Position numbers and translations under genes: made by a program. The notes under the pieces were generated by a model. The model was not told where the DNA came from and searched no databases. It saw only the letters and a list, made by a program, of their open reading frames with translations. A stretch of 64,000 nucleotides of DNA. It comes from Neocallimastix sp. 'constans'. Taxonomy: Eukaryota. The DNA lies in assembly GCA_050613775.1 (NCBI GenBank), contig JBODTK010000137.1, positions 372,001-436,000 on the forward strand. The letters are read 5' to 3'. Below are positions 7,104 through 62,667 of the stretch, piece after piece. Positions within the stretch are counted from its first letter, which is position 1. Every line of letters starts with the position of its first letter.

Positions 7104-7951
7104 ACTAAACTCTCCCCGGATTCATCGTTTATTGAACTACTAATGCGAGATTCATCCTTCGTAGAAATAGATGACGATTCTGTATTATCATTATGCCTTA
7201 TTAGTACGATGTCGATGCTCTTGGTTAAGTTTGGTAATTTGGAATACCTATCAAATAATAGCTTAAACGAACTACTTATGATAGGTATTACGCTAGTTAA
7301 GAATTCCGCCAAGCCCACAATTTTTGGAACAGGTGACTCAGATGAACCTTTGAAAAGTAGTTCATTTAATTGTCTCTGTTCCCCACTATCGAAATGTAGC
7401 TCTTTAAAGCTAAAGTCCCACCATGAAGGAACAAGTATATATAATGATTGATATAATCTTCAAAATTAGAAATAGAGTCATAGGAAGAAAGAGCATTAAA
7501 CACTCTAATCTTCCTAAGGAATAAAACATAGAGATCATCGATGAAATTTAAAGAATTCCATCTAAAAGATGCAAGAACATCGCATTTAAAAATCCAATGT
7601 TCAAAAGATTGATTACCTTCGCCACAACAGGGGCAAGACTTGGGACAAACTTCTGAAACTCTACCCATTCTAATAAAAATAGTAGTATTATATTTATAAC
7701 CACAGTGTAAACGTATAATCCACGAAAACCCAAAGTTGAATTGGGGATATTTTAAGCTAAGCATAATTATAGCTTTATTGTTTGAGAAGTTATTACTATA
7801 GTAGTTTTGACCTTTAATACCTTGAAATTTGGAAACTGATTTCCAGTAACGTTCTAAAGCATCGTCATATATTATATATTTATATTTTTTGATTTTTTTG
7901 TACAAAGTTCTAGATTCTTTAGTCCAGGAATAATAAGGCATTTTGGGAATA
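7104..7951 (-). mobile_element. Internal fragment of LINE family B (zinc-knuckle/C-terminal region)
   Basis: ORFs 7366-7941 and 7097-7318 are near-identical to the C-terminus of 39744-42356 (CPCCGEGNQSFEHWIFKC). Truncated at both ends, with a frameshift. Confidence 0.93.
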
Positions 7952-8190
7952 AAATAAAAATAACGAAAGGAAAGATTCCTTACTATATAACAACTAAATA
8001 ATGGAATGATTTAATTAAATTAATATATATATATATATATATATATAATTGCATATTAATTTAAATAAAATTAAAATAAATTAATATCCTAATGTTTGCT
8101 CTTTATTATTATTATTATTATTTACTCTACTATAATATTTTATATATATTGTTTTTAAAAAAATTATTAATATATTTTTATAAATTCCTA

Positions 8191-9396
8191 TTTTTTTTTT
8201 TTTTTTTTTTTAGACTAGGAAGAGAATACACTTCCAGTGCTTTATTAAATAGATTAAAACATTTTTATGTATTACATTTAATTATAAAAAATACATTATA
8301 TAATTAAAAGATAAAAAAAATAAAATATATGTAAAAGATTAAGTAAAATAAAAAATAATAAAAAGTTAAGAAATATCAAATTTTAATTAATCAAAGAAAA
8401 TTTAATGTAATAAAAAATAAAAAATAAGTTCAAGAGTTAAAAAAAATTCGGTGTGATGTATAATATGTGTAGTAATATGATTACCAGTTAAATCTAAAAT
8501 AATAAAACAAAGAAATAACATCTTTAAAATAGATAGTGTGGTACCCACTAAACTCTCCCCTGAACCACAAGAATGATCATCAAAAGTTGAATTATTTATT
8601 ATAGGTTCTGTGCTATTAGTTAATGTGTATTGATGAGAATTAACAGGACTTCTATTTTTTTTTTTTTTTTTTTAGACTAAGAGAATAACTTTATTTAATT
8701 TATAATAATAATAAAATTTCATGATTTTAAAGGAAAAAAAAATAATAATAATAAAATACATGAAATAAAATATTATATATTATAAAATTATAAAAGTGCG
8801 TTAGAAGCAATAGCCTCTAATTTTTCCCATTCATCGATGATAACACCATGTCTGTTGTTACGAGTAATAATATCAGAATTAGTATTATCTAACGAATCTG
8901 TATTTATTTTTTCACCGGGAGGTGAAAATCCATGCCTTATCATTTCGATGTCAACGCTCTTGGCAACGGTAGATTCAACGGAATACCATTTCATCATCAA
9001 ACTAAAAGATCGACAAATTAATGGTATTACGTTTGTTAAAAACTCCGCAATTCCCACAAAATAAGGAACAATCGACGAAGTTGAACTTTGTTTAAAAATA
9101 TTTTTAACTAATTGTCTTTGTTTCCCATCATTAAGTTTAATTTTTTTATATATTGAACGCCCACCAAGGAGAGCACTCAATATAAAATAATAAATATTAT
9201 TATCATAATCCTTTTCTGAATCTAAAGAAACATTCAAGGATTTTTGTTCAATTCAACAGGACTTCTAACTGCACTATTCCTTTGCCATATCGGTACGCAC
9301 TCTTGGTAATGAAAGTGCTAAAACTCTCAAAAAATAACTCAAGAGAGCTACTGACAATTGGTATTGTATTAGCAAGATATTCCGCAAGCCCCACAA
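8191..9396 (-). mobile_element. 5'-truncated LINE (B-related family D) containing a nested LINE; 12-bp TSD
   Basis: Poly(T) from 8191 and the 3' terminus GGAAGTGTATTCTCTTCCTAGTCT on the minus strand. 9268-9396 encodes IVGLAEYLANTIPIVSSSLEL. TSD TATAAATTCCTA at 8179-8190 and 9397-9408. Confidence 0.85.
8655..9254 (-). mobile_element. 5'-truncated LINE (A-related family E) nested in family D; 13-bp TSD
   Basis: ORF 8788-9237 resembles the family A C-terminus (LLGG..FVGIAEFLTNV..GVIIDEWEKLEA). Poly(T) from 8655. TSD AACAGGACTTCTA at 8642-8654 and 9255-9267. Confidence 0.9.
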
Positions 9397-10134: not shown

Positions 10135-11568
10135 TTAGTTAGTTAACTTTTCCTTTAACATGTTTTCTAATTTACATTGGTCTTCACCAAACTTTCTAAT
10201 ACCTTCACTTAACTTTTCAGTAGCCATAGTATCTTGGTTCATGTCCCAACGGAAAGCAGCTTCATTCTTGATGTAACTAACACGTGGAAGATCCATAGCC
10301 TTAGCATCCTTAACAGTTAACTTTGGTTCTAAAGTTTCCTTTGATTCTTGTAATTCAGAAAGAAGTTTTGGAGAAATGGTTAAGTAATCAACACCAACAA
10401 GTTGTTCAATTTCACCAGTGTTACGGAAAGAGGCACCCATAACAATGGTCTTGTAATCGTATTTCTTGTAGTAGTTGTAGATCTTTTGTACAGAAATGAC
10501 ACCTGGATCTTCAACAGATTCAAAAGTCTTACCAGTGTTCTTCTTGTACCAGTCAAGAATACGACCAACAAATGGTGAAATTAAAGTAACCTTAGCTTCA
10601 GCACAGGCAACAGCTTGTGGGAAACCAAAGAGAAGAGTTAAGTTACAGTGAATACCGAATTCCTTTTCTAATTCTTGAGCAGCTTGAATACCTTCCCAAG
10701 TAGAAGCAATCTTAATTAAAACACGATCCTTACTAACACCTTCTTCTTCATAAAGTTTAATTAATCTCTTAGCCTTTTCAATAGTGGCTTCCTTGTTGAA
10801 AGATAACTTAGCGTTAACTTCAGTTGAAACACGACCTGGAATAACCTTTAAAATTTCACAACCAAAGTTGACAATAAGTTTATCAGCAGCCCAAGCAATT
10901 TGTTCTTCAAGATCACTACAATTTTCAATTATTTATTTTGTTATAATAATAAATATTTTATATTATTAAAAAATATAAAAAAAAAAAAAAAAAAAAAAGC
11001 AAAAAGGAAAAAAATTTTTTCGTTAATTCTATATTACTTCACTTATTCCTTTATTAATTTTTATAAAAATTTCTATTTTATTTTATAATTTATTTATATA
11101 GTAATTTTATTTTATTTTATATTTTATGTAATTTCTATCTTATAATTCACTTCTTTATTACTATTATTTAATAATTCACTTCTTTATTACTATTATTTAA
11201 TAAATATTATAATTTCTTATTTATTTAATTATTTACTCTGACTTAGACTTAGCATAACCTATAGCATTGTCAATAAGGAATGCATACTGTTCCTTTTGAG
11301 AAGCTTGAAGCATAAGAGATGGGTTTGTAGTAGCATCTTGTGGCTTAAATTGAGAAATAGCTATTATTAATATATGAAATTACATAAGCATACCAAAAAA
11401 TATTAGTACATATAATAATAAATTATTTTTTCATATATATTATTATTAAACATATTTTAAATTTCTAACTTATAAACTATTTTAGTAATTTAATTTTTAT
11501 TTTATATTTATTAATAAATATAAAATTTTATTTATAGTAAAATATTAAATTTAATACTACTATATTTC

Positions 11569-23240: not shown

Positions 23241-23308
23241 TTAGGTTTTTTGTTTCTTAGCTGAAACTTTTTGATATAAATCTATAAAAATTAAAAAATA
23301 AAATAGAA

Positions 23309-23344
<36 letters not shown>

Positions 23345-23875
23345 TAAAGTTATGAATATATATATATATTCATTAATATTAAATATTTAATATCAAAATT
23401 TAAAAATACCCTCTAAGACACAATGAAATGCCCTATCAATATTTACTGCACCTAATGCTGAAATTTCTTCAAATAAAACTTTTTCATCATCTTAATATAT
23501 ACAAATAATTAATATATTATATTATAATTATTATAATTGTTGTAATTATTGTAATTACTATTATTACTATTATTAATTATTATAATTATTACAATTACTA
23601 TCATTATTTTTATCATTATTATTATATAATATTTAATAGAGTTACCTGCAAATTTTTTTGCTTTTTCATAGCTAACTTCTCTCTCATTTTCTTGATCTAT
23701 TTTATTTCCTATTAACATAATTGACATAGTATCTTCTTTACTACGTAAACGTTCATATTTACTTTTAATATCTTGAATCCAGAATCGAGAATTATCAAAA
23801 CTATCTTCATTTGTGATATCATAAACTACTAAAATACAAATTGAACCCTTCAAATAAAATAATGGTATATGTCTT

Positions 23876-23923
<48 letters not shown>

Positions 23924-24071
23924 TAATATTCACCGTAATACTAATATTTTAAAGGAAACATTATATAAGTTAGAAAAAAAATAAATCATAATCAAAATTA
24001 AAATCAAAATAAATAAATTAATAATAGTCATAATAATAATGATATTTTAAAGGAAACGTTATATATATTAG

Positions 24072-24117
<46 letters not shown>

Positions 24118-25180
24118 ATAAAAAAAAAATAAAAAATAAAAAATAAAAGAATAAATAAAAATAAAATAAAAAAATAAAAAAATAAAAAATTTTTTTAAGT
24201 TTGTTTTCTAATCAATTATTTCATCCATTATACCTTGAATATCTTGAGGTATCCCAAATATGAGTATTAATGGATGCTTTATTATTATTTAATTGAACCA
24301 CTTTCGTTCCAAAGTCAATACCATATTTTGATTTTGATTTTATTGAAAATTCATTATAGGCAAAACGAGATAAAATACATGTTTTTCCAGTATTTTTATC
24401 ACCCATAAGTAATACTAATATAAACATTAAAAAAAAAAAAAAGATTTATCAATGAATTTTAAAATTTTTATGAAATTGATATATTATAATAATATTTGTA
24501 TAATTTATTCTAATTTAATATTATAAATAATTAATATTAATATTAATATATATATATATATTATGCTTTATTACATTTTATATTTATACTATTATATAAT
24601 ATTATTTAATAAATAGAAAAAAAAATTACTATATCTATATATTATATATTTTAAAAAAAAATTACTATATCTATTTAATATATATTTAAAAAAAAAAAAA
24701 AATACCTTTAAATAAATTATTATTAATATTATTTTCAATTCTAGTTTCAATAAAATCATATTTAGTGTGCTTTAATTCCTGTTTTACTTGATATTTTGAA
24801 TTCATTTTTTTACTTCTAATAGTATTGGGTATCATCTTTAATTGAATATTATCTGTATCTTTATCGTTAAAACTATTTTTTTGTTTAAAGGATTTAACAT
24901 AATTATTTGGTTTCATAATAAGTACGTTATTTTTATTTCCTTGCATATCTATTTCTTCAGGAAGCATTGGATCATTCTGCCATATTCCATCTACTACAAA
25001 TTTATAAACAATTTTTTGGTTAATTGGAAGCAGTATTCTGGATATGAATATATTTGTTAATGGATCTTTATCCATTTGAATTTTTTTCTCCCAATTATCA
25101 AAATTTCCTGTAATTATAACATTTTCAGGTTGACCTTTATAGTTTATTACCAAATATAAATAATTTTATTATATATATAT

Positions 25181-25235
<55 letters not shown>

Positions 25236-25387
25236 ATTTAATAATTTAATAACTTAAGCATTAATATACATTAATGTATCATTCATTAAAAAAAATATAT
25301 ATATAAAATTTAAAATTAATAATTCTTTTATGATTATATACCATACACCCAAGTAAAGGTATGAACTTCTTTTGTAATTGGTAACAT
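23241..25387 (-). CDS. CBM48 (AMPK-beta-type glycogen-binding) domain fused to an atypical Rab11-like small GTPase domain, ~334 aa, 6 exons
   Basis: Exons 25387-25342, 25134-24706, 24414-24234, 23872-23646, 23490-23410 and 23281-23241 (46+429+181+227+81+41 = 1005 nt) are all GT-AG and phase-compatible. CBM48 motifs FTW..VIITGNFDNW, YKFVVDGIW and GNKNNVL; Rab motifs LFKVLLMGDKNTGKT, GIDFGTK, IWDT, LVVYDIT, IGNKID and EISAL. Confidence 0.85.
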
Positions 25388-31737: not shown

Positions 31738-33678
31738 ATGTCTGACACAAACGAATTAGTTGCTAACTTCCTTAGCATGTTCAAGAACAGTCGTCAAGCT
31801 AAGACCAATACCATTGTTAGCGAAGATGAAATTCTTGCTGATATGGAAGAACTTTTCGTTGTTGGTCCAACCAAGTTAAAGGAAATTGTTAAGCACTTCA
31901 TTGGTGAAATGCAAAAGGGTTTAGATCATGATGGTGCTACTGTTGCTATGCTTCCTTCTTTCGTTACTAACCGTCCAACTGGTAAGGAACAAGGTTCTTA
32001 CCTTGCTCTTGATTTAGGAGGTAAATATTTAATTTAAATATTTTATTATAAATTGAAAATGGATTAAAAGGAATATAAATAGAAGTTTGTGAAATTTAAT
32101 TTAAGTAAAAAATAAAGAGAAGTTAACAAAAATAAATAAATATTGAAATATTATGATTTTTGACTTTGAGTAATAATTTATTATAAAAAAAATCAATATT
32201 TAAATGAAAGCAAAATAGTGTAAATAAATAAATAAAAAATAAATAAATAAATAAAAAATAAATAAATAAAAAATAAATAAATAAAAAATAAATAAATAAA
32301 TAAAAAATAAATAAATAAAAAATAAATAAATAAAAAATAAATAAATAAAAAATAAATAAAAAATAAAAAAAAAATAAACAAATAAATAAATAAATAATAG
32401 AAACAAAATATTTGTATGCATTAAGGTGAAGAAAGATCAGAGGAATATGGAATATGAAATAAATTATTCAAAATTATTACAGGAAAGAGGTAATAAATAT
32501 AATGAACTAATAATTATTTATTTATTATATAATAAATTTTGAAAATAGGTACTAACTTCCGTGTCTGTGAAGTTTACCTTGAAGGTCAATGCTCTGTTCG
32601 TCTTAGACAAAAGAAGTTCACTATCCCAGAATCATGTAAGAATGCCGAAGGTGAAGTTCTTTTCGATTTCCTTGCTGATTCTGTTGAATCTTTCCTTAAG
32701 GACAGTGGTGTTGTTCCAGCTCAACAAAAATTAGAACTTGGTTTCACTTTCTCTTTCCCAGTTGAACAAACTGCTATTAACGCTGGTAACCTTTTAGTTT
32801 GGTCTAAGGGTTTCAACTGTTCCAACACTGTTGGTAAAGATGTTGTTGAAATGCTTAATCAAGCTTTCATCCGTAAGGGATTAAATGTTAAGGTTACTGC
32901 TCTTGTTAACGATACTGTTGGTACTCTTATTTCCCACGCCTACAATGACCCACAAACTCTTGTTGGTGTTATTCTTGGTACTGGTACAAATGCTGCTTAC
33001 GTTGAAAAGATTGAAAACGTTAAGAAGTGGAAGGGTGCCATTCCAGCTTCTGGTGAAATGATCATTAACTGTGAATGGGGAGCTTACGATGAAGAAAAGG
33101 TTATGCTTCCAGTAACTCAATATGATAACAAGTTAGATGCTGAATCTCAAAACCCAGGTAAGCACATCTACGAAAAGATGATCTCTGGTATGTACCTTGG
33201 TGAAATCTGTAGAAATGTTTTCCTTGATCTTATTGAAAAGAAGTACCTCTTCAACGGTTACTTAAGTGAAGAATTAAAGAAGCCAAACAGTTTCGAAACT
33301 CAATACATGTCTAGAATTGAAAGAGATTACTCTGCTGATTTATCTGATACTAAGATTGTTCTTCAAGATCTTTTAGGTATTCAAAGCACAACTGCTCGTG
33401 ACCGTCGTATTGTTCGTCGTATTGTTGAACTTGTCGGTATTCGTGCTGCTCGTCTTTCTGCTTGTTGTATTGCTGGTTTAATTACTCAAATGAAGAAACT
33501 CGATGGTTGTACTGTTGCTATTGATGGTTCTGTCTATGAACACTACCCACACTTTGGTAACAGAATTCAAGATGCTCTTCACGAACTTTTAGGTATCTTC
33601 GCCGAAAACATTACCTTAGCTTTAGGTAAGGATGGTTCTGGTATTGGTGCCGGTATCATTGCTGCCTTAGCTGATTAG
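31738..33678 (+). CDS. HXK: Hexokinase, ~470 aa, 2 exons
   Basis: Exons 31738-32020 and 32549-33678 join to give LALDLGGTNFRV. Also LGFTFSFP, VNDTVGT, ILGTGTN, INCEWG, YEKMISGMYLGE and DGSGIGAG. Codon usage typical of a highly expressed gene. Confidence 0.96.
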
Positions 33679-34500: not shown

Positions 34501-37500
34501 TTCTCAGGAATGTATTACTTTATATGGGGTGCACTGAGAGTAGACTAACTTAATTTTAAAGTACTATTTCTGATAGTAATCCATTAAAAAACTATCTCAT
34601 GAAAAACATATTGCATTTCGGAATATTAAGCCTTACTTTAATTGTGAAAATGTTGATAATTACCTTGAACAATTTAATAAATATGAAAAACTTTGCAAAT
34701 TAATCAAGAAAACTAAGAGTAAATTTCGTTCTGCTAGATTTAAGGCTAATATAGTAAAAATAGGTAATTATTTTTTGAATACCCCAATGAAGTGGACTGT
34801 TTTTCCAGGTCCATGGAGGGTTGATGGAAAAGGAATAACCTATATCAGGTGTACTAATTACAGCTTTCTGTGATTCTGATGATAATCAATGGTTATCCTT
34901 TCTAAAGTGGCTTCTAGTACGAAGAGAGAAATCTGGAATACTGGAAGACTGTAGAAAGTGAACTTGACGTTCTATAATGTCTTAAACTGGATATGTAGTA
35001 ACATTGGAGTTGTACAATTAATAATATCATGTAGTTTCTACATATTATCATTGTAATGAATCTATTGTATTTTTTACTTTAGCATTATTTTGTATATGTT
35101 TTTTTCTATAGTATTATTTATACTCTCATGTAGCTATTGTAAAATGGAAATGTAGGAGATTGATTCACTCCAAAGCTTGTGTTTGAGACATTATTTAACG
35201 GATGGGAATCTTTTTATAGTTTTTCACAACTATTATTTCATTAACATTTAAATTTTATATTATATATGATTATTTTACAGAAATTTTTACATAAAACAGG
35301 AATTTATAATTGAAAATCATTAATTAAAACTAGTCAACACAAAAAGAAAGAAAAACAAACAAGTTTTAGCAAACAATATACACGAAAGAGAAGACAACAG
35401 CAATAAATTTTTATTTTTTTTTTAATTTTTTAATTTTTACTAATTTTATTTTTTTATTTTTTTATTACACTTAACTTTTTATTAATATAGATAAGTTTTT
35501 TATTTTATTATGTCAACTATACGAAGAGGTCTGCGACTTTATGGTCCTGACCATGATAAATTTGTTTTAATTTTCATTCATGATCTTGAATCATGGACTG
35601 AAAGTAGACTATGGGAATTTTTAAGCAAAAAGATATCAAATTGTAATGAAGTTGTTCATGGAATCGTTAAAAAACACTATATTAATATGGAAAACTACTT
35701 TATCCTAAGAGTTAACTATAATAATTGTACGGATTATTTGAAGGTTATTTATTTGATTACTAAGCACTTACCTGTTAAAAGAATTAAATGGAAGATTACT
35801 TCAAGGATACGCACATTTAGTAATGTTAATCATAATAGCACCAGGTATTATTCTGAACCCTCAATCCCCATCTCTGAAAGCCTCCTGTATGCTAACCCTT
35901 TCTCGAATACTAAATATTTCAACCTCTGTATTAGCTGGAACATAAATGGTTGGAATTCTGAAAAACGTGACGGACTTACCAATTTTAATTCAATCTTTAA
36001 TCCTATTTGTATTTGTCTTCAAGAAGTCGGTAATAGTTCATTCCTTAACTCCTTTTCTAACTCATATCCATTCCTTAATCATTATAGAACAGTACTGAGA
36101 CGTGCGGACAAAAAAATCCCTGGTATGAGGGGCCTTTATATAGGTGTGCACTCCTCCTGCCAATTCACTAATGATGATTTTGAATATAGATATATACTCT
36201 CAGTAAATATATTCTCTTTTTGGGGTGTCAGATGTTCTTTAGGGAACATTTACATCCCTAGCAAAAAACACAAAGACTCTAGAGAAAAAGCGGAAACTGA
36301 TTTTGCTAATTGGCTCAAGAACCATCAGAATAACCCTTCGGCTATTGTTGGTGATTTCAACATGACTAAGCAACAACTCAAAGATCTTATTCTTAGAATT
36401 TCCCCTCAATGGTTTGTTATGGATATGGTTGGTCATCAATTTACTTGGTCTAATGGTGGAAAGAATTCTTGTATTGATTTTATAGTAGTGAACGATAAAT
36501 TAAGAAATTATCTGAATATTGCTTCTGTATGCTACTCTTTTAATGACATCTCTGACCATTTACCACTTATTCTTTCTTGTAAAAAAATATCTCCTGATGG
36601 TTTTGTTACTCCACCTCGGGATAAACAAATTAAGTGGTCTAATCGAATTTGTAGGGATAAACGTGAAGCAATCTTCTCTCATAATAAATTCACATGTTTA
36701 CTGGATGAATTTGAACATAATGATAATCTAGACTCTAATACAATGGTTAAAAAACTTCTTGACACAGCAAATAAAATAGGCGATGACATTCAAGCAAGAG
36801 TTCCTACAAATTTACAGGGTTCAGCGTTCCATTGTCCTGCTTATATTAAGAAATTATCACATGAAAAACATTTATTTTATAAAAGGATTAAAAATTTTAA
36901 ACTTCGTAATGATTTGTCAAATCTTCAAGAATTTTGTGATCTCTCAAAAGAATATAGAGTTCTTTCTGATTATATCATTAGTATTAAAAGAAATATTAGG
37001 AATATTAGATTTAATAATTTGATTCATTCCATCGGCGAATGTTTCTTAAAAAATGATGCCCAGCGTGGTTGGTCTGGACTTAAGAAAATTTCTAAACCTT
37101 CTTACTCTCCTTCCCAATCACCTGTATACATTAAAGATAAAGAAGGTAATGTTCTAGTATCCCAAGAAGATCAACTCAATCGTTTTGCAGAACACTATGA
37201 AGAACTTGCTTCTGATATAACTGGTCACAGTCTTAATGAAAATTATTGGAAAAGAATACTTAATAATTCTTCTACTCCTCAGGTATCATGGGATATTAAT
37301 CAACCTATTTCCATGTCAGAAATTCATTCAACTGTTCTTTCAATGAAAAATAACAAAGCACCTGGTCCTGATGGTATACCTACAGAATTTTTTAAAGCAT
37401 TTTTTAATTCTGAGAGTAGAAATTCTTCTCAGGATGACTCTAATCAAGAGGTTACTTATTCCGATTGTGCAAAGTGTCTGTTATTACTTTTTAATAAAAT

Positions 37501-39683
37501 TTGGGATGGTGACTTTCCTAATGAATGGAACTCTGCTTCTATTGTTTCTATTCCTAAAAAAGGGGATCTTTCAGATTGTAATAATTATCGTGGTATTTCA
37601 CTCATCAATGTAGGTTTAAAAATTCTATCAAAAATTGTCACTAAAAGAATATCGGACTATGCTTTTTCTAATGGAATAATTAGACCAGAACAGTTTGGTT
37701 TTAGAAATAAAGAAGAATGTATTAGTTTATTTGTATCCATTCGTGAAATTTGTCAAAGAAGAAAATTTAAGGATAAATTTACCTTTCTTGCCTTTCTTGA
37801 CCTTAAAAAAGCTTATGATTCAGTTCCAATTTACAATATACTTACTAAACTAGATAATCTTGGTATTCGTGGTAAATGCCTTCAATTCATTACTAATCTA
37901 TACCTTACCTCGAAAGCTCGTGCAAACTTTAATGGTAAACTTTCAAAAGAATTTCCAATACACCGTGGTGTTCGCCAAGGGTGTCCTCTCTCACCTATCT
38001 TATTCAATATATTTATCAATGATATTTTTGATAAATGTAAAAGATATGGTGTGATTACTGAAAAGAAAAAGTGTTGTGGTGGATTATTTGCTGATGATAT
38101 TGTATTATTAGCTCCTACAAAATCTTCACTTAAAAACCTTTTGAATATTGCTCATGATTGGGGTATTAAAAATGAAATGACCTTTGGAATCAATAAATGC
38201 GCTACACTAGTTGTTAAACCAAAGAATTTTATTCCTTCAAGACATTATGAAAATCCTACATTTAGACTTGGTATGAACTATATACCAAGCACTAATCAAT
38301 ATACATATCTTGGTATACCTTTTAATGAATCGTTGGATTTAAAACCTATTATTGCTAAGATGAATAGTAAAATTAATTATACAGTTAACTCTTTCTTTAG
38401 TTTTTTAACCAATAGGAATGTTCCTTTCTACTTTAAAACTCGTATACTAGTTTCTTTTGTCCTTAGCTCAGTTCTTTATTATGCTCCCTTACTTGGTTCA
38501 AATAAAAAGAATACTGAAAAAGCTCAAACTGCTTTTAATCGAGGTTTGTACTGGAGTTTCGGGTTTAAAAATAAAACCTCCAATACTTCAATTTACAATA
38601 TGTCTAAGGAACTTTCTATACCTCCTATAGCTAGTTTTTGTGCTAAGGCGATGATTCGATGCTTTAAAAAGTGGAAAGATTCTTCTTGTATTATTTCTCA
38701 TTTAGTCAAAAATATACCTACACTTTCTCACTATTCATGGACGAAAAAAGCACGGAGTTTAGCAGTACACAAGCACAGTAATAAACTTCCTGGAGAAATA
38801 AGGAAGTTTTACTGGGAAAATATTCATTATTCAAGCACTCCTGCGATCAGATCTACAAAATACAAGAAATTTAAATTTGGTTTTAAAAAATTTATTCATC
38901 GTCTATCACTTAAATATTCACAATTTTCTCTTGGATTTTTTTGGATTGGACGAATTAAATGTGGATTCAAATTTGATGTAAAAACGTATGTTAAAAGTAA
39001 TCTAGTATCAGAAAATTGCCCAACATACTGCCCTTGTTGTGGTGAGAGTAACAGCATACCTAGTTTTACACACTGGATACTTTTATGTCCTAAATTTGAA
39101 GAATTTAGGCAACATTTCATTCCCTTTGTTGATGAAATTTTTATTAATTTTTCTCTAATTGTTCATGAGAAATCATTGAACATTCCTGATGATAAAGAGG
39201 AAGATTTTGATGATAATATCAATTTTTACGTGCTGTGTCTCCTTCTTGGCGGAAATGCAGTATTTGAAATCTTAAAGATCGGCTCGGGGGAAAGAAGGCG
39301 ATATATTAATAATATTTTTCAATCACCTTCGAACGAGTCTTCTTTCCCGATTTCATATTTTGTGGGGCTTGCGGAATTCCTTACTAACGTTATGCCTATT
39401 GTGATTGGTGATTTTTACACCATGATCGATTTGTATAGTGTTAGACCTACCGTTGTCAAGAGCGTCGACGTCGTAACGATAAGGCAAAGAAGAAATTCTG
39501 ATACAGATTCGAATGATAATTTTCATCCACATGGGGTTATCTTCGATGAATGGGAAGAGTTAGAGGCCTTTTCGTCCTCGAATCTCATAACGTAGTTTTT
39601 TAATATTAATATAAAAAATTTTCATGTATTTAAATTTCATGTATTTTTTAAAAAAAATATTATTAAATAAAGTTTATTCCTAG

Positions 39684-39739
<56 letters not shown>
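34501..39739 (+). mobile_element. Full-length non-LTR retrotransposon (LINE family A), single ORF
   Basis: ~1-kb 5' UTR, intact 1361-aa ORF, short 3' UTR with AATAAA, ..TAGTCT and poly(A) at 39687-39739. Confidence 0.93.
35510..39595 (+). CDS. LINE polyprotein: putative RRM-like N-terminus, APE endonuclease, reverse transcriptase, C-terminal Cys/His knuckle
   Basis: APE motifs SWNING, CLQE, VGDFN, CIDF and SDHLP; RT motifs KAPGPDG, NYRGISL, QFGFR, FLDLKKAYDSV, GVRQGCPLSP, LFADD and YLG; CPCC..H....C knuckle. Confidence 0.95.
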   Translation: MSTIRRGLRLYGPDHDKFVLIFIHDLESWTESRLWEFLSKKISNCNEVVHGIVKKHYINMENYFILRVNYNNCTDYLKVIYLITKHLPVKRIKWKITSRIRTFSNVNHNSTRYYSEPSIPISESLLYANPFSNTKYFNLCISWNINGWNSEKRDGLTNFNSIFNPICICLQEVGNSSFLNSFSNSYPFLNHYRTVLRRADKKIPGMRGLYIGVHSSCQFTNDDFEYRYILSVNIFSFWGVRCSLGNIYIPSKKHKDSREKAETDFANWLKNHQNNPSAIVGDFNMTKQQLKDLILRISPQWFVMDMVGHQFTWSNGGKNSCIDFIVVNDKLRNYLNIASVCYSFNDISDHLPLILSCKKISPDGFVTPPRDKQIKWSNRICRDKREAIFSHNKFTCLLDEFEHNDNLDSNTMVKKLLDTANKIGDDIQARVPTNLQGSAFHCPAYIKKLSHEKHLFYKRIKNFKLRNDLSNLQEFCDLSKEYRVLSDYIISIKRNIRNIRFNNLIHSIGECFLKNDAQRGWSGLKKISKPSYSPSQSPVYIKDKEGNVLVSQEDQLNRFAEHYEELASDITGHSLNENYWKRILNNSSTPQVSWDINQPISMSEIHSTVLSMKNNKAPGPDGIPTEFFKAFFNSESRNSSQDDSNQEVTYSDCAKCLLLLFNKIWDGDFPNEWNSASIVSIPKKGDLSDCNNYRGISLINVGLKILSKIVTKRISDYAFSNGIIRPEQFGFRNKEECISLFVSIREICQRRKFKDKFTFLAFLDLKKAYDSVPIYNILTKLDNLGIRGKCLQFITNLYLTSKARANFNGKLSKEFPIHRGVRQGCPLSPILFNIFINDIFDKCKRYGVITEKKKCCGGLFADDIVLLAPTKSSLKNLLNIAHDWGIKNEMTFGINKCATLVVKPKNFIPSRHYENPTFRLGMNYIPSTNQYTYLGIPFNESLDLKPIIAKMNSKINYTVNSFFSFLTNRNVPFYFKTRILVSFVLSSVLYYAPLLGSNKKNTEKAQTAFNRGLYWSFGFKNKTSNTSIYNMSKELSIPPIASFCAKAMIRCFKKWKDSSCIISHLVKNIPTLSHYSWTKKARSLAVHKHSNKLPGEIRKFYWENIHYSSTPAIRSTKYKKFKFGFKKFIHRLSLKYSQFSLGFFWIGRIKCGFKFDVKTYVKSNLVSENCPTYCPCCGESNSIPSFTHWILLCPKFEEFRQHFIPFVDEIFINFSLIVHEKSLNIPDDKEEDFDDNINFYVLCLLLGGNAVFEILKIGSGERRRYINNIFQSPSNESSFPISYFVGLAEFLTNVMPIVIGDFYTMIDLYSVRPTVVKSVDVVTIRQRRNSDTDSNDNFHPHGVIFDEWEELEAFSSSNLIT

Positions 39740-39743
<4 letters not shown>

Positions 39744-42539
39744 TTGAATAAAGATTTCAAAAATGGTTGGAGATGTTTAAAGAAAATGGCTAAACCATCA
39801 TATTCATCTACCTCCCTTACTTGCATTAAATCTAAGTTTGGTCAAGATATTATCTCTCCTTCAAAGCAATTAGATAGATGGGCTGAATATTATAAAGATC
39901 TTGCTTCGGATCCCTCAGGTCACAGCCTTAATCGTAATTACTGGAATCATGCTTTAAGGAATATTAGTCTTAGATCCACTACCTGGAATATAAATGGTCC
40001 TATTACGATTGAAGATATTAAAAAAACTATTTCATCGATGAAAAATAACAAAGCACCCGGCCCCGATGGTATTCCGATTGAATTCTACAAAGCTCTTTTT
40101 TGTAACGAAGAATTACTAGAATCACATCCTGCTGCTGGAAAGTGTCTAAAATTGATATTTAATAAAATATGGAATGGGTCATTTCCTAAAAAATGGAACT
40201 CAGCTTCTATTGTATCAATTCCTAAGAAGGGTGACCTATCAGATTGTAGTAATTATCGAGGTATTTCTCTCATTAACGTTGGACTAAAAATCATTTCAAA
40301 AATTATAACAGATAGAATATCTACTTACGCACTCTCACACAATTTCATTAGACCTGAACAATTTGGATTTCGCAACCGCGAAGAATGCATTAGTTTATTC
40401 ATTTCCGTTAGAGAAATTTGTCAAAGAAGAAAATTCCAAGGAAAATTCACATATTTAGCTTTTTTAGATCTTAAAAAAGCTTATGATTCAGTTCCTATTT
40501 TTAACATTCTTACTAAATTATATCATTATGGAGTACGCGGTAAATGTTTTGATTTTCTTTGTAATTTATATACTTCATCTAAAGCACGTGCTCGATTTGC
40601 TTCAATGTTATCAAATGAATTTCCTATTAAAAGAGGTGTTCGTCAAGGTTGTCCTTTATCTCCAATCTTATTCAATTTATTCATCAATGATATACTAAAT
40701 AACTGTGAAAAGTATGGTGTTAATGTTGGAAGAAAAAAGTGTTGTGGTGGACTCTTTGCTGATGATGTTGTTCTCATTGCTCCAAATGCAAAAAATTTAG
40801 AAAAATTATTAAAAAAGGTACATAAATGGGCTAATTTAAATGAAATGACTTTTGGTATTGAAAAGTGTGCAACTATGGTTATAAAACCAATGAACTTCCA
40901 ACCTCCTCCAAACTATAGTGATCCAACCTTCTATTTAGGAAAGAATGATATTCCTAAAGTTTCTAGTTATGTCTATCTTGGTATTCCTTTTTCAGATGAT
41001 CTCCTACTAGAACACATTATATCTCACATGCATTTTAAAGTTAGAAAATCCCTTCTTTCATTTACACGTTTCTTTTCAAATAAACTTATTCCTATTGTAT
41101 ACAAGAAAAAAGTTCTTCAATCCTTTGTTATTAGTAAAGTAATTTATTATTCTCCTTTACTTGGTTCAAACAAATCTAGAACGGCTAGAATTCAAACATT
41201 AATTAATACTGGTCTATTTTGGTGTATCGGTTCCTTCTCTAAAAATGGTAAAACAAATACAGAAAACAATGACTATATTAGACATAATTCAACAATGAGT
41301 ACTTATGCTTTATCTCGAGATCTAAGCATCCCTCCTATTGCTGGTATCTGCGCAGCCTTACAGATTAAATCATTTGCAAAATGGAGTAAATCAAACTGTA
41401 TCATAAAGGATCTTATAAAATCTATTCCCAAAATGCCTTATTATTCCTGGACTAAAGAATCTAGAACACTATATAAAAAAATCAAAAAATATAAATGTGT
41501 AAAATATGACGATATTATAGAACGTTACTGGAAATCAGTTTCCAGATTTCAAGGTATTAAAGGTCAAAACTACGATAGTAACAAGTTCTCAAACAATAAA
41601 GCTATAATAATGCTTAGCTTAAAATATCCCCAATTCAACTTAGGATTTTCGTGGATTATACGTTTACGCTGTGGTTATAAATACAATACTACTATTGCTA
41701 TTAGAATGGGTAGAGTTTCAGAAGATTGTCCAAAGTCCTGCCCATGTTGTGGTGAAGGTAATCAATCTTTTGAACATTGGATTTTTAAATGCGATGCTCT
41801 TGCATCTTTTAGATGGAATTCTTTAAATTTCATCGATGATCTCTATGTTTTATTCCTTAGGAAGATTAGAGCGTTTAATCCTCTTTCTTCCTATGACTCT
41901 ATTTCTGATTTTGAAGATTATATCAATCATTATATATACTTGTTCCTTCTTGGTGGGACTTTAGTTTTAAATGAACTACATTTCGATAGTGGGGAACAGA
42001 GACATTTAAATGAACTACTTTTCAAAGGTTCATCTGAGTCACCTGTTCCGAAAATTGTGGGCTTGGCGGAATTCTTAACAAATGCAATACCTATCATAAG
42101 TAGTTCGTTTGAGCTATTATTTGATAGGTATTGCAAAATATCAAACTTAACCAAGAGCGTCGACGTCGTACTGATAAGGCATAATGAAAATACAGGATTA
42201 TCATCTATTACTACGAAGGGTGATTCTCACCCTAGTAGCTCAATAAATGATGAATCCGGGGAGAGTTTAGTGGACACCACACTATCTATTTTAAGGATGT
42301 TACTTCTAAATTTTATTTCTTTTTTATTTGATAGGAAGGGTAAAATTCCCGCATAGTACAACTTGCCGAAATACATAGTATTTTCGAGCTTTTTTATTTT
42401 TTATTTTTTATTTTTTAATTTTTTATTTTTTAATTTCTAATGTACTTTTCACCTACATGTATTTTTTAAAATAAAATTTAATAAAGTTTTTGGAAGTGTA
42501 TTCTCTTCCCTGTCTAAAAAAAAAAAAAAAAAAAAAAAA
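39740..42539 (+). mobile_element. 5'-truncated LINE family B with an open RT ORF (39744-42356)
   Basis: 870-aa open frame with all RT motifs and the knuckle but no APE domain; starts directly after the family A poly(A); ends GGAAGTGTATTCTCTTCCCTGTCT-(A)n. Confidence 0.93.
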
Positions 42540-45500
42540 TTCTGATAGTAATCTTTAACAGCCAAAATGTTTTATTTAATTGTAAAATATATTAACAATA
42601 GAAATAATATTGTTAATAATACCCCGAGCAGGAGTGTACTCGATTTATGTATTTAAATCGCCTGCAAGGGGAATTAACTTTACTCTTATAAAGTAGATCC
42701 ACAGTACTGGTGCAAAATAGTAGTAAAGTTATATTTTGTGTTAATTAATAACATTATGCGCAATGGTAATGTTATTGGTAAAATTTTTCTGGTGAACACT
42801 CACTGCGGAATATAATGGTGCATTTTTGGAACATTGTTAAATAAGTTACACCCAAGAATTAGTAATACATTTTCATTGTATTTCTATTTTCATGTAGTAT
42901 TACTATTCTCATGTAAGAATCTATTGTATTCAATTGTATTTCAACTTTATATTTCATGTATCACGTTGTAAGAGATTGATTCACTCTAAATCTTGTAGTA
43001 ATTTATTTAACTCTTTACTAATTTTGTGCCATTTTATTTCATCAATTCAATCTTAGTCATTAAATACTTTATGATATTCAATTTAAATAATATACTGAAA
43101 AAAGTGCTAAATCAAATTATTTTTCAATCATTCAACAAACTACTAATTATCGAAATTATTTACTCCAAAAAGATATAAAATTATTACAATTCTCATTATA
43201 CTCAAGACTTTATAATAAAAATTGACTTTTTTTTTATTTTTTTTTTTTTAGTTATTAATTTTTAGTTTTTTATTACTATTATGGAAATCCAATTTATAAG
43301 AAATAAGAATTTCATTCTAAGAGGTTCAAGGTGCCACGGTATACCAATGGAGAATACGAAACTACTCTTTATCCGCGGACTTCGATCTTGGCCAGAAATC
43401 AAAATGAGAAGACATTTAAAGAAAACTCTGAATGAATTAAATGATAAGGTTTTATCAGTTAAACGTATTGCTAATTTTAATGATGCATTCTTTAAAATTA
43501 AAATAGTAGGTAATGAAGAAGAATTAACATCTATTACCGATTGTATTGTTAATAGTTTCAAACGTGCTTCAATTAACGTTATTAATTGTAGCAAAAGGAA
43601 TCATAAATACAGTTTTTCTTCACTCAAAAGGAAACATTTTGCCTTATCAGAAAAAGTGAATTCATCTTATAATATCAACTTATTCACTACTTCAAATTCA
43701 AATGCAGATTCAAGTCAAAATTCAAATTCAAGTTCAAATACAGATTCATGTTCAAGTTCAAGTACAAGCTCAAGTTCAAGTTCAAGTACAAGTTCAAGTA
43801 CAAGCTCAAGTTCAAGTTCAAGTACAAGTTTAAGTACAAGTTCAAGTACAGGTTCAAGTTCAAGTTCAAGTCCAAGTTCAAGTACAATTTCAAGTTCAAG
43901 TTCAAGTACAAGTTCAAGTACAAGTTCAAGTTCAAGTTCAAGTTCAAGTTCAAGTACAAGTTCAAGTTCAATTTCAAATTTATGTTTAAATTCAGTTTCA
44001 AGCTCAGATTCAAATTCAAATTTCAGTTCAATCAATTATAATAATTCCAATAATATTAATAACACTCATATTAATAATAATACAGTTAAAGAATTTTCTC
44101 TATGTGTCAGTTGGAATACTAATGGATGGAACTTTGATAAAAAAGACAGTGTTGAATTCTTTATTTCAATGTACAAACCACTTTTCTTATGCTTTCAGGA
44201 AACAGGAAATGGTTCAGGTTCTAGCAGTAAATATCCATGTCGAGTATCATTAAAAAACTACAAACATTTCTTCAAAAAAGCTAATAATGAAATTCCCGGT
44301 AAAAGAGGTCTTTATATTGGGTTTCATAATTCTTGTCAAGCCTCTCTTGAAAACAACACTTATGAGTATATTATTTCCTTGTATACTTATAATTTTTGGA
44401 ATTTCACTAAATGTTCTATTGGTAATGTGTACGTACCTCATAGTGGCCATAGCCTTCATGCTAGAGCTGCTAGAATTGAAATATTGTCTTGGTTAAATAG
44501 TCACTCTTCTCATCCTTCAATGTTGGTTGGTGATTTTAATTTACCTACTGAGAAATTAGGTAATTTGCTCTCTAAATTTAGTAATTGGAAAATTCTTCCC
44601 TTATGGGGCTCCCCAATTTCATGGAGTAGAGGTAATAGAGAATCTGATATAGATCATGCGATTGTCAATGATCATATGTTAGATTTACTTTCATATGGTA
44701 CTTTTATTGATTTTCCCCCCCATTTCGGATCATAAACCTTTATTAATAAAAGGTAAATGTTTTTCATCAGTTAATTCAGATAATTCTTTCTCTCTGCCTA
44801 AAAAGACAGTTAAATGGGATAGATTAAAATGTATAAATGAAAAAGAATCAATTTTTGACAACAACTATTTTAGTGTATTAGAGGAAGTGATTCCAGATCC
44901 TAATATTAGTATTGATGATATTTCAAAGAAATTTATTTCAACTTCATTCAATATTGCTAAGGAACTTAATATCACGTCAATTTCAGAAGTTCGAAAATCT
45001 TTTTTTCATATGTCGCAGAAAATATTTAATTTGCAAAAACTCAAAATGAAATTATATAAATCCATTAAAAGAAGAGGTTCTTATCATAATTTAGATGAAT
45101 TTGAAGAATTAATTGATAAATATAATAGAATGTGCAAAATTATTCATCATATGTGTAATATTTATAGGAAAACTGAATACCAACATTGGATTAATACAGG
45201 ATGTGAATATATGAAATCTCATAACCCTAAAAAAGCTTGGAAATGGCTTAAAACAACAGCAAAAGTAGATAAATTTAAAAATATGTCAAATTCTCCAGTA
45301 AAGGACAAAAATGGTAAACTAGCTACTTCTACTAAAGAACAGTTAGAAGTATGGCACAATCACTATAAAAAACTTGCTTCAAGCCATTCTGATATCAATA
45401 GTGCATTAATCGAATGGTATAATAAATTTTCCAATGGAACAATTAGGTATACGAGACACAATGAATGGGATATAAATCAAGACATCAGTATAGAAGAAAT

Positions 45501-47992
45501 TAGAGAAGCAATTTTGGCTACTCCAAATTTTAAAGCTTCAGGCCCGGATGGAATTCCTATTGAATTTTATAAAGCTTTAATTCCTCCGGATGACGAAAAT
45601 TCAGTAAATAATTCTTCTTCTGGTTTAAATTGTTTACAGAAGATATACTCAAGAATTTGGAATGGAGAATTTCCTAGCTCATGGAATGAAGCAAGTATTA
45701 TATCTATTCCTAAAAAAGGAGATGATCTATCTGATTGTGACAATTATCGAGGTATCTCTCTGATTAACAATGGTATTAAACTCGTTTCGAAAATAGTCTC
45801 CAAAAGAATTTCAGAATATGGACTTAAAAATAATTTTATTAGGCCAGAGCAATTTGGATTTCGTACTAAAGAAGAATGTGTTAGTTTATTTATTTCAATT
45901 CGAGAAATTTGTCAAAGGCGTAAAAATGATAATAAAGAAACTTACCTAGCTTTTCTAGATTTAAAAAAGGCATATGATTCTGTTCCAATAGGTAATATTT
46001 TATATAAATTAGATGCTTTAGGTATTAGAGGTAAATGTTATCAATTTATAAAAAATCTATATTTGACATCCAAAGCTAGTGTTAAAATTGATGATCAATA
46101 TTCGGAATCTTTTAATATTATGAAAGGAGTTAGACAAGGTTGTCCACTATCACCAATTCTTTTCAATCTTTTTATTAATGACATTTTTAATGATGTTTCA
46201 GAACTTGGAATTCCTTTAGGCGAATCTAGATGTTGTGGTGGACTCTTTGCAGATGATATTGTTCTATGCGCACCGTCAAGAACTAAGTTGAAAAAAATGC
46301 TTAAGAAGGTAAATGAATGGGCTAAATTTAATATGATGAATTTTGGAATTAATAAGTGTGCAACGATGGTGATTCGACCAGACACACCTCTTTTTCAAAA
46401 TAAAAGAGATCCTACTTTTTATCTTGCTGGTCAACCAATTCCAATAACTAAATGTTATACCTATTTAGGTATACCATTTGATAAAAGCTTATCGTTGAAA
46501 CCTATTATTAAATTACTTAACTCTAAAGTAACTAAAGCTCTCTTTTCTGTTAGTAAATTTCTTTCAAATTCCAAAATTCCTATTCCATTTAAGAAGATTA
46601 TAATTAACTCTTATGTACTTAGTAAAGTCTCTTACTTTGCACCTTTACTTGGTTCGAATAAAACGAGAACAAATAATACTCAGAAATTAATTAATAAAGG
46701 ATTAAGATGGATTGCAGGTATACAAAAAGCCAAATCATTTATTAATGTATATTCTATTTCAAAAGATTTACATATTCCTCCATTGTCAGCTAAGTGTGCT
46801 TTGTCTCAGGTCAAATGTTTTGATAAATGGAAAAATTCAAATTGTATTATTTCCTATTTAGTTAATAATATTCCAAAATCTAGAAAATATACATGGACAA
46901 AAGAAAGTAGAACTCTTAAACGTAAACTAGAGAAAAGAGGTAATAACGATAATAAAATCAAGGATTTTTATTGGAAAAGAGATATGAAAATCAATTCTAT
47001 TAAAGCTGAGTTTTATGACAAAAACAAATTCGAAGAAACATCAAAATTTATAAAACTTTGTTATGACTATCCTGATCTTTCATATGGTTTCTATTGGCTA
47101 TTGAGAGCACGAAGCGGATATAGATTAGATGCTAGAATTGCTAAAGCTGCAAAAATAGTGGACCAAATGTGTCCTAATTTTTGTCCCTGTTGTAAAAGTA
47201 ATAAACAATGGATAAGTCATTGGTTAATTGATTGTCCCTTTTTCAATCATACTCGTAGTAAAGTTAATGATAAAATTTTATTTTTATATAATGCTTTTTA
47301 CCGTGGCAACCTAACAAATGATATTGTTAATAGTAATAATGATAATAGTAATAGTAATAATAGTAATAGTTATAATAGTAATAATAATATTAGTAATAGT
47401 ATTTTTAGTAATGTTAGTAATAGTATTGAAAATAATGTGTATATTGATTCTAGTGTGTGTGAAAAAGTGTTTAATTTCCTTCTTGGAGGTCGAAGTATTA
47501 ATAACAGTACAAGGGAATGGAAGGATCTATTTAAGTGCCAGATGAAATCAGGTGCTTATTCTGATACTCCGTTCTTAGTGGTTACTGCGGCACTTCTCCA
47601 ATCGATTATACCTATTGCTATTGGCCAGCAATGGTCTTTGTTCAATAGGTTCAAATCGAATCGTACTACTACTACCAAGAGCGTCAATGCTGAAGAAACA
47701 GTAAGACAGGCCAGCAGGGCTAGCGCAACCAATGAAGATCATAATTTTGTATCTTAAAATTATGATTAACAATGCGAAGTCAAAATTAATTATTATACTT
47801 CAGTATAATAATGCCCTTGTGAAGTCTTACAAATATTAATTATATGAAACTAGAATATATTATACCATTATTTTATTTTATTTTGTGTTTTATTTTTTGT
47901 TTATTTTTTTATTTTTTTATCTTTTTTTTATAATTTTATTACATGTATTTTATCAAATATTTAATTAATAAAGATGAAACAAGTTTGATGTC

Positions 47993-48024: not shown

Positions 48025-48026
<2 letters not shown>

Positions 48027-62621: not shown

Positions 62622-62667
62622 GGAAAAAATAATAAATTTTTAATTTATTAATATATTAAAATTTTTA

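What the first reader, a model, noticed from the sequence alone, without database searches (positions are those of the whole stretch)
23241..25387. CBM48 glycogen-binding domain fused to an unprenylated, switch-II-degenerate Rab11-like GTPase
Seen: three separate ORFs in the track, plus three small exons, splice in phase into one ~334-aa protein. The exon 2/3 junction itself builds the Rab start LFK|VLLMGDKNTGKT, which argues for a true fusion. G1 (GDKNTGKT), G4 (NKID) and G5 (EISAL) are kept. G3 reads WDTSRYSRH instead of WDTAGQERY, with switch II about two residues shorter. The switch I Thr is replaced (SKSKYGIDF versus SKSTIGVEF in Rab11). The protein ends ..SAKKQKT with no Cys. Established: CBM48 targets AMPK-beta and related proteins to glycogen; Rabs need C-terminal Cys geranylgeranylation for membrane binding and DTAGQ for the hydrolysis switch. 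Inference: a Rab-fold pseudo-GTPase or nucleotide sensor anchored to glycogen granules instead of membranes, possibly linking storage glucan to trafficking or glycophagy. I do not recall this architecture being described.
Basis: partly seen in the sequence, partly recalled or inferred. Interest (0 to 1): 0.85.

Follow-up and report, generated by a model that had tools for sequence, protein, structure and literature searches.

The report
Glycogen-binding module fused to pseudo-Rab
Anaerobic gut fungi carry a spliced, conserved gene that joins a predicted glycogen-binding module to a Rab-type GTPase domain lacking its lipid anchor and switch residues, so it likely acts as a non-switching adaptor that would sit on glycogen granules instead of membranes.

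Summary
The fusion is real. Six GT-AG exons give a 334-aa protein identical to an annotated Neocallimastix lanati protein, and RNA contigs cross the CBM-to-GTPase junction with the intron removed. The same architecture occurs in Neocallimastix (two copies), Pecoramyces, Piromyces and intronless metagenome contigs. I found it nowhere else. Selection is strongly purifying (dN/dS 0.03-0.06 in the CBM48, 0.08-0.15 in the G domain). The odd motifs are fixed family traits in 20 of 20 sequences that span them: Lys/Arg for the switch I Thr, and DTSRY for DTAGQ with two residues lost. The tail stops about 30 residues short of a Rab11 tail, with no Cys. G1, G4, G5 and the G3 Asp are kept. Best reading (0.45): a glycogen-anchored, nucleotide-bound, non-switching adaptor that works like RGK proteins. 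It is not a classical Rab. Ten literature searches found no description of it.

The parts
25342..25387 (-). Exon 1 (ATG at 25387; residues 1-15, start of CBM48)
   Evidence: loose ends of RNA contigs in 4 of 4 runs match it
24706..25134 (-). Exon 2 (rest of CBM48, variable linker 90-138, conserved pre-G segment 139-157 with a predicted helix, first residues of beta-1)
24902..25360 (-). AMPK1_CBM / CBM48 domain, residues 10-93 (spans intron 1); W30, K60, W67, N84 match AMPK beta1 W100, K126, W133, N150; Q80 and N82 replace L146 and T148
   Evidence: Pfam PF16561 54.8 bits; PDB alignment; residue roles from PMC2642990 and PMC4032982 passages
24415..24705 (-). Intron 2 (291 nt), the fusion junction; spliced out in RNA contigs
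   Evidence: (X3 record 6, X1 record 1)
24234..24414 (-). Exon 3 (G1, switch I, G3)
24380..24403 (-). G1 P-loop GDKNTGKT (residues 163-170); Lys and Thr intact; Asn166 specific to this copy
24311..24328 (-). Switch I KYGIDF (188-193): the G2 Thr is replaced by Lys (Arg in one clade)
   Evidence: 20 of 20 family sequences spanning it; alignment
24234..24256 (-). G3 WDTSRYS: Asp213 kept; Gly replaced by Arg216 and Gln by Tyr217; switch II two residues short
   Evidence: 20 of 20 family sequences spanning it
23646..23872 (-). Exon 4 (end of switch II, beta-4, alpha-3 with a 6-residue insertion, G4 NKID at 23695-23706)
   Evidence: loose ends in 2 of 4 runs match its start
23410..23490 (-). Exon 5 (G5 EISAL at 23453-23467)
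   Evidence: identical annotated protein; intronless homologues
23241..23281 (-). Exon 6 (end of alpha-5, basic tail, stop; no hypervariable region, no Cys)

Best explanation
This is a spliced, conserved gut-fungal gene whose CBM48 likely holds the protein on glycogen granules, while its unprenylated Rab-type domain likely binds guanine nucleotide without switching and would serve as a fixed docking surface for a partner protein. Shown: one transcript, the two domains, loss of the prenyl tail, fixed replacement of the G2 Thr and the G3 Gly and Gln, and purifying selection on both domains. Inferred: glycogen binding (4 of 6 contact residues), nucleotide binding (G1, G3 Asp, G4, G5 kept), and little or no hydrolysis or GTP/GDP switching. 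The partner is unknown. Output would then be set by expression and by how much glycogen surface is available, as in RGK proteins, not by a GEF/GAP/GDI cycle. The domains are probably tethered, since the linker varies in length and sequence.
For: Transcript-level fusion. All 8 of 8 hits among 172 candidates carry both PF16561 and PF00071. dN/dS is 0.032-0.059 for the CBM (6 pairs), 0.082-0.154 for G-domain residues 158-289 (10 pairs), 0.039-0.197 for the switch I-II stretch (10 pairs) and 0.19-0.59 for the linker (10 pairs): the remodelled switch region is as constrained as the core, which fits a binding surface. G2 Thr contacts the gamma-phosphate and Mg, G3 DxxGQ holds the catalytic Gln, and prenylation is a prerequisite for Rab membrane localisation (PMC5902221 passages). 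RGK proteins, with altered switch I and G3, have low or no GTPase activity and use an unlipidated C-terminus (PMC9074095, PMC4081519 passages). The AMPK CBM48 puts AMPK on glycogen particles (PMC4724661 passages). The tail is 13 residues from the alpha-5 motif against 41-65 in 12 Rab11s measured. The G domain models as a Rab fold.
Against: No binding, localisation or partner data. The L146 and T148 equivalents are Gln and Asn, and mutating either markedly reduced glycogen binding in AMPK (PMC2642990 passage). In yeast, blocking glycogen synthesis did not affect SNF1, so a CBM48 need not act through glycogen (PMC4032982 passage). The last 12 residues have net charge +3 to +5 in 11 of 11 sequences checked and could anchor it to acidic membranes. 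Lys/Arg188 and Arg216 might support a non-canonical chemistry. The CBM was not confidently modelled (pLDDT mostly under 50). For glycogen in these fungi I saw only a methods mention of glycogen-bound glucose in N. lanati (PMC8561657); zoospore glycogen stores are recalled.
Confidence: 0.45

Rival explanations
1. It is a non-canonical but working switch or GTP sensor on glycogen: the conserved basic residues at the G2 (Lys/Arg188) and G3-Gly (Arg216) positions contact the gamma-phosphate in place of Thr and Gly, giving GTP-selective binding or slow self-activated hydrolysis that reports energy state.
For: Both basic residues are present in 20 of 20 sequences; G1 Lys/Thr, G3 Asp, G4 and G5 are all kept; some RGK functions still depend on GTP binding (PMC9074095 passage).
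Against: No Gln and no Gly hinge, and switch II is shortened. Both switch regions are the least confident parts of the G-domain model (block pLDDT 59 and 67), so side-chain placement is not known.
Confidence: 0.18
2. It is a glycogen-gated decoy: it binds GEFs or effectors of the parent Rab (Rab11 or Rab8) and holds them on glycogen, tying exocytic traffic to carbon stores. This is closest to the first reader's trafficking idea.
For: It keeps Rab11-type residues around switch I (S174, N179, E180, S185, K186, T195) and aromatic residues F193, W212, Y225 at the positions of the Rab effector triad (triad identity recalled, not from a call).
Against: The effector and GEF contact stretches are the most altered parts (TIGVEF to KYGIDF; switch II rewritten and two residues short). 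No interaction evidence.
Confidence: 0.14
3. Glycogen is not the ligand: the CBM48 fold is a protein-interaction module, and the protein is a Rab-like (RabL-type) factor held by its basic tail on membranes or at the zoospore flagellum.
For: Two of six sugar-contact residues are replaced; the AMPK CBM has a second, protein-facing surface (PMC4724661); unprenylated RabL4/RabL5 act in intraflagellar transport (PMC7818423 passage); basic tail in 11 of 11 checked.
Against: Both cradle tryptophans, the Lys and the Asn are kept, and the CBM is the most constrained part. A similar basic end of alpha-5 is seen in Rab11 chains (alignments), so it may be inherited. A flagellar factor would be expected in other flagellated fungi, and none was found.
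Confidence: 0.17
4. It is a carbohydrate-sensing defence protein, like the bacterial ParA-AMPK1_CBM fusions proposed to act in immunity.
For: A P-loop NTPase fused to AMPK1_CBM is described in bacteria (bioRxiv 10.64898/2026.10.19.760177 passage).
Against: That proposal rests on a rapidly diverging CBM; here the CBM has dN/dS 0.03-0.06 and only one or two copies were seen per named genome.
Confidence: 0.04
5. It is an annotation artefact or a decaying chimera of two neighbouring genes.
For: One N. californiae model holds only the G domain (P0009, marked partial) and metagenome gene callers split the exons (P0019-P0022, P0025).
Against: Spliced RNA contigs cross the junction; 4 intronless contigs carry CBM and G-domain sequence in one piece; dN/dS is far below 1.
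Confidence: 0.01

Closest known systems
Rab11/Ypt31 subfamily (and Rab8/Sec4)
   Same: Best sequence and fold matches: Rab11 141 bits, Rab8 126, Rab1 121; Foldseek top hit Rab11 4uj5_B, target TM 0.89, Rab8a second. G1, G4, G5 kept.
   Different: No G2 Thr, no G3 Gly/Gln, switch II two residues short, no hypervariable tail or Cys, N-terminal CBM48; long branch of unresolved position.
[quoted passage not shown]
   Same: G1, G4, G5 conserved, G2 lost, G3 altered, unprenylated basic C-terminus (PMC4081519, PMC9074095 passages). The closest functional analogy.
   Different: Rab-type rather than RGK sequence; G3 is DTSR, not DXWE; no C-7 Cys motif or extended C-terminus; carries a CBM48.
AMPK/SNF1 beta-subunit CBM48 (AMPK1_CBM, PF16561)
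   Same: Pfam hit above cut-off; W100, K126, W133, N150 equivalents kept. Nearest atlas cluster is a 103-aa eukaryotic AMPK1_CBM cluster, commonest phylum Chytridiomycota, score 0.97.
   Different: L146 and T148 equivalents replaced; no AMPKBI domain among Pfam hits; fused to a G domain.
Large Rabs (Rab44, Rab45, CRACR2A) and Rab-like proteins (RabL2-6, IFT27, IFT22)
   Same: A ligand-binding N-terminal module on a C-terminal Rab domain (large Rabs); no prenylation (RabL) (PMC7818423 passage).
   Different: The module is a CBM48, not EF-hand plus coiled coil; RabL proteins are single-domain; this one combines fusion, loss of prenylation and loss of switch residues.
Bacterial ParA-AMPK1_CBM fusion (bioRxiv 10.64898/2026.10.19.760177)
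   Same: A P-loop NTPase fused to the same Pfam CBM family.
   Different: ParA is a SIMIBI NTPase with a C-terminal, fast-evolving CBM in bacteria; this is a Ras-superfamily domain with an N-terminal, highly conserved CBM in fungi.
ArlEM, putative pseudoGTPase of Microsporidia (PMC13393502)
   Same: A lineage-specific, conserved small-GTPase derivative with mutated G motifs in a fungus-related group.
   Different: Arf family, predicted lipidated, probably unable to bind nucleotide; here the guanine- and phosphate-binding motifs are kept.

Membership tests
Classical Rab GTPase | G1 GxxxxGK[S/T] | tested here: met
   GDKNTGKT; present in 20 of 20 sequences spanning it
Classical Rab GTPase | G2 threonine in switch I | tested here: not met
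   Lys or Arg in 20 of 20
Classical Rab GTPase | G3 DxxGQ | tested here: not met
   DTSRY in 20 of 20; Asp kept
Classical Rab GTPase | G4 NKxD and G5 SAK/SAL | tested here: met
   NK[IV]D in 20 of 20; EISAL in 19 of 20 (one contig frameshifts before it)
Classical Rab GTPase | C-terminal prenylated cysteines on a hypervariable tail | tested here: not met
   No Cys in the last 10 residues of 25 of 25 sequences, 14 of them with the complete terminus; stop codon and 3' flank seen on intronless contigs L002-L004
Classical Rab GTPase | Ras-like fold | tested here: met
   AF2 model with six strands and the G-domain helices; Foldseek TM 0.83-0.91 to most Rab chains listed; the input alignment was rich in Rab11, so this is not independent
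Rab11 subfamily (descent) | Groups with Rab11 in a phylogeny | tested here: inconclusive
   68-row tree: unresolved long branch outside the Rab11 group; 23-row tree: Rab11 side, 94/94, not starred; AU p 0.24 (fungal Rab11), 0.22 (Rab1/8), 0.21 (Rab2). No Rab4, Rab14 or identified gut-fungal Rab11 in the set
Rab11 subfamily (descent) | Rab11-diagnostic residues | tested here: inconclusive
   10 of 19 diagnostic matches are Rab11-type, 3 each Rab8, Rab1, Rab2; mean identity Rab11 38.8%, Rab8 39.1%
CBM48 / AMPK1_CBM | Pfam PF16561 above gathering score | tested here: met
   54.8 bits against 26.8
CBM48 / AMPK1_CBM | Sugar-contact residues W100, K126, W133, L146, T148, N150 | tested here: inconclusive
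   4 of 6 kept (W30, K60, W67, N84); Q80 and N82 replace L146 and T148 (roles)
CBM48 / AMPK1_CBM | Binds glycogen or cyclodextrin | not testable with these tools
   needs a binding assay
RGK family | G3 signature DXWE | tested here: not met
   DTSR; signature from PMC4081519
RGK family | Extended C-terminus with C-7 cysteine motif | tested here: not met
   Protein ends with alpha-5; no Cys. It may work like an RGK but is not a member
PseudoGTPases | GTPase fold with catalytic motif residues lost | tested here: met
   G2 and G3 replaced; fold
PseudoGTPases | Measured lack of hydrolysis; nucleotide-binding class | not testable with these tools
   needs biochemistry; the classifying review (PMC7544640) was not held
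Large Rabs / Rab-like proteins | EF-hand plus coiled coil (large Rabs), or lone G domain (RabL) | tested here: not met
   Pfam shows only AMPK1_CBM and Ras-type families
ParA-CBM system | ParA domain and fast-evolving CBM | tested here: not met
   Ras-family domain; CBM dN/dS 0.03-0.06

The most novel reading that the evidence does not exclude
Anaerobic gut fungi have rebuilt a Rab into an identity tag for a non-membrane organelle: the lipid anchor is swapped for a glycogen-binding module and the switch is rewired with two basic residues, so the glycogen granule recruits its own Rab-type effectors and couples carbon stores to traffic or zoospore development.
Probability: 0.2. Interest if true: 0.85.

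Novelty: new variant of a known kind. Interest (0 to 1): 0.62.

Why it matters
Rabs mark membranes through a prenyl anchor. A Rab-type domain that has traded the anchor for a carbohydrate-binding module would be a direct physical link between glycogen and small-GTPase signalling, which I found described nowhere. It is small, predicted soluble and testable in vitro. It is also a natural experiment on what a Rab fold does without G2 and G3, and a lineage-specific handle on carbon storage in rumen fungi, whose cell biology is little known. The parts are all known, the range is one fungal phylum and the function is inferred, which caps the score.

Tried and rejected
No whole genome is held for this window, so the host's other Rabs, prenylation machinery and glycogen enzymes were not checked. 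A lead that Chytriomyces P0198 (GIDFGTK motif, no terminal Cys) is an orthologue was rejected: it keeps DTAGQ and the G2 Thr, a cluster mate ends in GGCC, it lies in tandem with Rab11 in P0244, has no CBM and does not group with the family. A hidden micro-exon restoring switch II was sought: no in-frame AG..GT candidate of 3-60 nt in intron 3, and RNA joins exon 3 directly to exon 4. The first fold with 8 sequences was poor (pLDDT 48.8); the second (61.4) resolved only the G domain. The complex prediction of CBM against G domain with GTP and Mg gave no answer (score 0.01) and is not used either way. The atlas gave no usable hit for the full protein. Codon-model omega was not printed by IQ-TREE; only Nei-Gojobori values are used. 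The Pfam scan of 44 longer Rab hits showed no CBM but lists only the best 5 families each, so the HMM scan is the test relied on. The genome contigs and viral contigs collections were not scanned. No earlier finding of this scan matched. Contig depth was not used as an expression level.

Full report
Observation. The window is 20% GC. Six minus-strand exons between 25387 and 23241 have GT..AG borders and splice in phase to 334 aa. The model equals, letter for letter, an annotated Neocallimastix lanati protein, P0012, and from residue 36 the N. sp. 'constans' protein P0002, so the host is very likely a Neocallimastix. Pfam finds AMPK1_CBM at 10-93 and Ras at 158-324.

It is one transcript. Of 24 runs listed, 19 hold part of exon 2; I laid 4 of them on exons 2-3 (two are on record as RNA, two are guessed to be RNA). 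In X3 one contig lies on both exons with no mismatch, and its unplaced 43 nt equal the 43 coding bases around the intron. In X1 a second contig also bridges the junction, but its exon 3 variants are those of the other Neocallimastix copy (11 of 11 listed positions fall among the 19 where L001 differs), so it is probably an assembly chimera of two spliced paralogues. X4 and X7 showed no bridging record among those listed. Loose ends match exon 1 in 4 of 4 runs and exon 4 in 2 of 4. The last two junctions were not checked on reads of this copy. Four intronless metagenome contigs align to the CDS at 78-89% identity across all junctions they span.

Range. A search with exon 2 among longer proteins gave 8 hits of 172 candidates, all 8 with both domains. 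Their clusters hold 25 sequences: named ones are from Neocallimastix (two copies in N. lanati and in 'constans'), Pecoramyces ruminantium and Piromyces finnis; the rest are unnamed. A profile search of 1.84 billion representatives returned in its best 150 one family member, one read-through fragment of exon 2, and 148 other Rab-domain proteins, 0 of which carry a CBM by a CBM-only HMM. That HMM finds 8 of 8 distant CBM48s at 26-37 bits, and ordinary single-domain Rabs in the list score 121-148 bits alone, so a CBM48 fused to an ordinary Rab should have appeared. A fusion with a very divergent Rab, or one hidden behind a cluster representative, could be missed. The architecture therefore looks confined to anaerobic gut fungi.

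Selection. From five coding sequences (window and L001-L004; L004 lacks an open CBM frame and L001 frameshifts near residue 290), Nei-Gojobori dN/dS is 0.032-0.059 for the CBM, 0.082-0.154 for G-domain residues 158-289, 0.039-0.197 for the switch I-II stretch and 0.19-0.59 for the linker. The altered motifs are not decay: [KR]YGIDF and WDTSRYS[KR]HIP occur in 20 of 20 sequences that span them; the other 5 are exon fragments. None of the 25 has a Cys in its last 10 residues, and 14 have the complete basic end. This copy's P-loop Asn is private (18 of 20 have Gly), yet its dN/dS is not raised.

The G domain. G1, the G3 Asp, G4 and G5 are kept; the G2 Thr is Lys/Arg, the G3 Gly is Arg, the catalytic Gln is Tyr, and switch II is two residues short. 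By the motif roles in PMC5902221 (passages) this predicts guanine-nucleotide binding without the usual gamma-phosphate sensing or hydrolysis. The chain ends 13 residues after the alpha-5 motif, against 41-65 in 12 Rab11s measured, so hypervariable tail and prenyl site are both gone. The model has a Rab fold, with the switch regions least certain; the alignment behind it was rich in Rab11. Parentage is open: PDB scores rank Rab11 over Rab8 over Rab1 and 10 of 19 diagnostic positions are Rab11-type, but mean identity to Rab8 is equal. The 68-row tree leaves the family on an unresolved long branch that meets Rab6; without Rab5 and Rab6 it falls on the Rab11 side at 94/94, and AU tests reject neither Rab1/8 nor Rab2. 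Group labels came partly from source names and partly from recalled motifs; the trees used 68 and 23 chosen domains, not all stored ones, and had no Rab4 or Rab14.

The CBM. It aligns to AMPK beta CBMs and keeps the equivalents of W100, K126, W133 and N150, named as critical in PMC4032982 (passages). L146 and T148, also needed for full binding in PMC2642990 (passages), are Gln and Asn. Its nearest atlas cluster is a small eukaryotic AMPK1_CBM cluster, commonest in Chytridiomycota among the 9 members with a phylum. Glycogen binding is likely but unproven.

Mechanism. The simplest reading (0.45) is an anchor swap: the CBM48 places the protein on glycogen, and a nucleotide-bound, non-switching Rab-type domain offers a fixed, strongly conserved surface to an unknown partner. 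This resembles RGK proteins, which also lack G2, have an altered G3, show low or no GTPase activity and are unlipidated (passages of PMC4081519 and PMC9074095); it is not an RGK by sequence. Rivals are a rewired switch using the two basic residues (0.18), a non-glycogen role through a protein-binding CBM and the basic tail (0.17), a glycogen-gated decoy for Rab11/Rab8 regulators (0.14), a defence sensor like bacterial ParA-CBM fusions (0.04) and artefact (0.01). Nothing here points to glycophagy.

Prior description. Ten full-text searches listed no paper on a CBM48-Rab fusion; two of them (Neocallimastigomycota + Rab11; CBM48 + small GTPase + glycogen-binding) returned 0 papers. For most listed papers I saw only the listing and the start of the abstract. 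I read keyword passages of PMC12341934 (no CBM48 or GTPase mention), PMC13393502 (no gut-fungus mention), PMC13236570, PMC4724661, PMC5902221, PMC4081519, PMC9074095, PMC2642990, PMC4032982, PMC7818423, PMC9785684, PMC8561657, PMC8401276 and bioRxiv 10.64898/2026.10.19.760177; the last describes a bacterial ParA-AMPK1_CBM fusion. I opened no supplements, where gut-fungal CAZyme tables may list this protein as CBM48 without comment, and subscription journals are not covered. The proteins sit in public databases under generic names such as 'ras-domain-containing protein'.

Verdict. It is a new, lineage-restricted architecture built from known parts, conserved and transcribed, with an inferred function that simple biochemistry can test. 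Novelty: new variant of a known kind. Interest 0.62.

Noticed in passing
window 10135-10932 (-) and 32536-33678 (+): Transaldolase (PF00923, 274 bits) and hexokinase (PF03727/PF00349) exons flank the gene at about 12 kb and 7 kb. Both are sugar-phosphate enzymes, but neighbourhood in a fungal genome is weak evidence and synteny was not checked.
   Followed up: partly
window 35495-49511 and 53484-54587 (+); 7366-9252 (-): A same-strand cluster of LINE-type retroelement ORFs (the one scanned has endonuclease and RVT_1 domains) with a Cys-rich C-terminal motif, plus degraded copies elsewhere in the window.
   Followed up: partly
window 57561-62639 (-): A Ty1/copia-type LTR retrotransposon split over three frames (RVT_2 208 bits; gag- and integrase-like ORFs by eye).
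   Followed up: partly
window 50813-51505 (+): A 230-aa ORF with several Cys motifs that by eye resembles the C-terminal part of a radical SAM/SPASM protein (recalled resemblance); no Pfam hit at E 0.001. A possible horizontally acquired gene.
   Followed up: partly
window 24380-24403 (-): This copy has Asn where 18 of 20 family sequences, including the second Neocallimastix copy, have Gly in the P-loop; possible divergence between the duplicates.
   Followed up: partly
proteins P0243, P0244, P0246 (Chytriomyces): A fast-evolving Rab11 duplicate in Chytriomyces, in tandem with the ordinary Rab11 gene according to one fused gene model; two annotations lose its terminal CC.
   Followed up: partly
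window 24706-24762 (-), residues 139-157: The segment just before the G domain is identical at DNA level between the two Neocallimastix copies (0 differences in 19 codons, against dS about 0.43 elsewhere) and is predicted helical at low confidence. Codon bias, a splicing element or gene conversion are untested.
   Followed up: no
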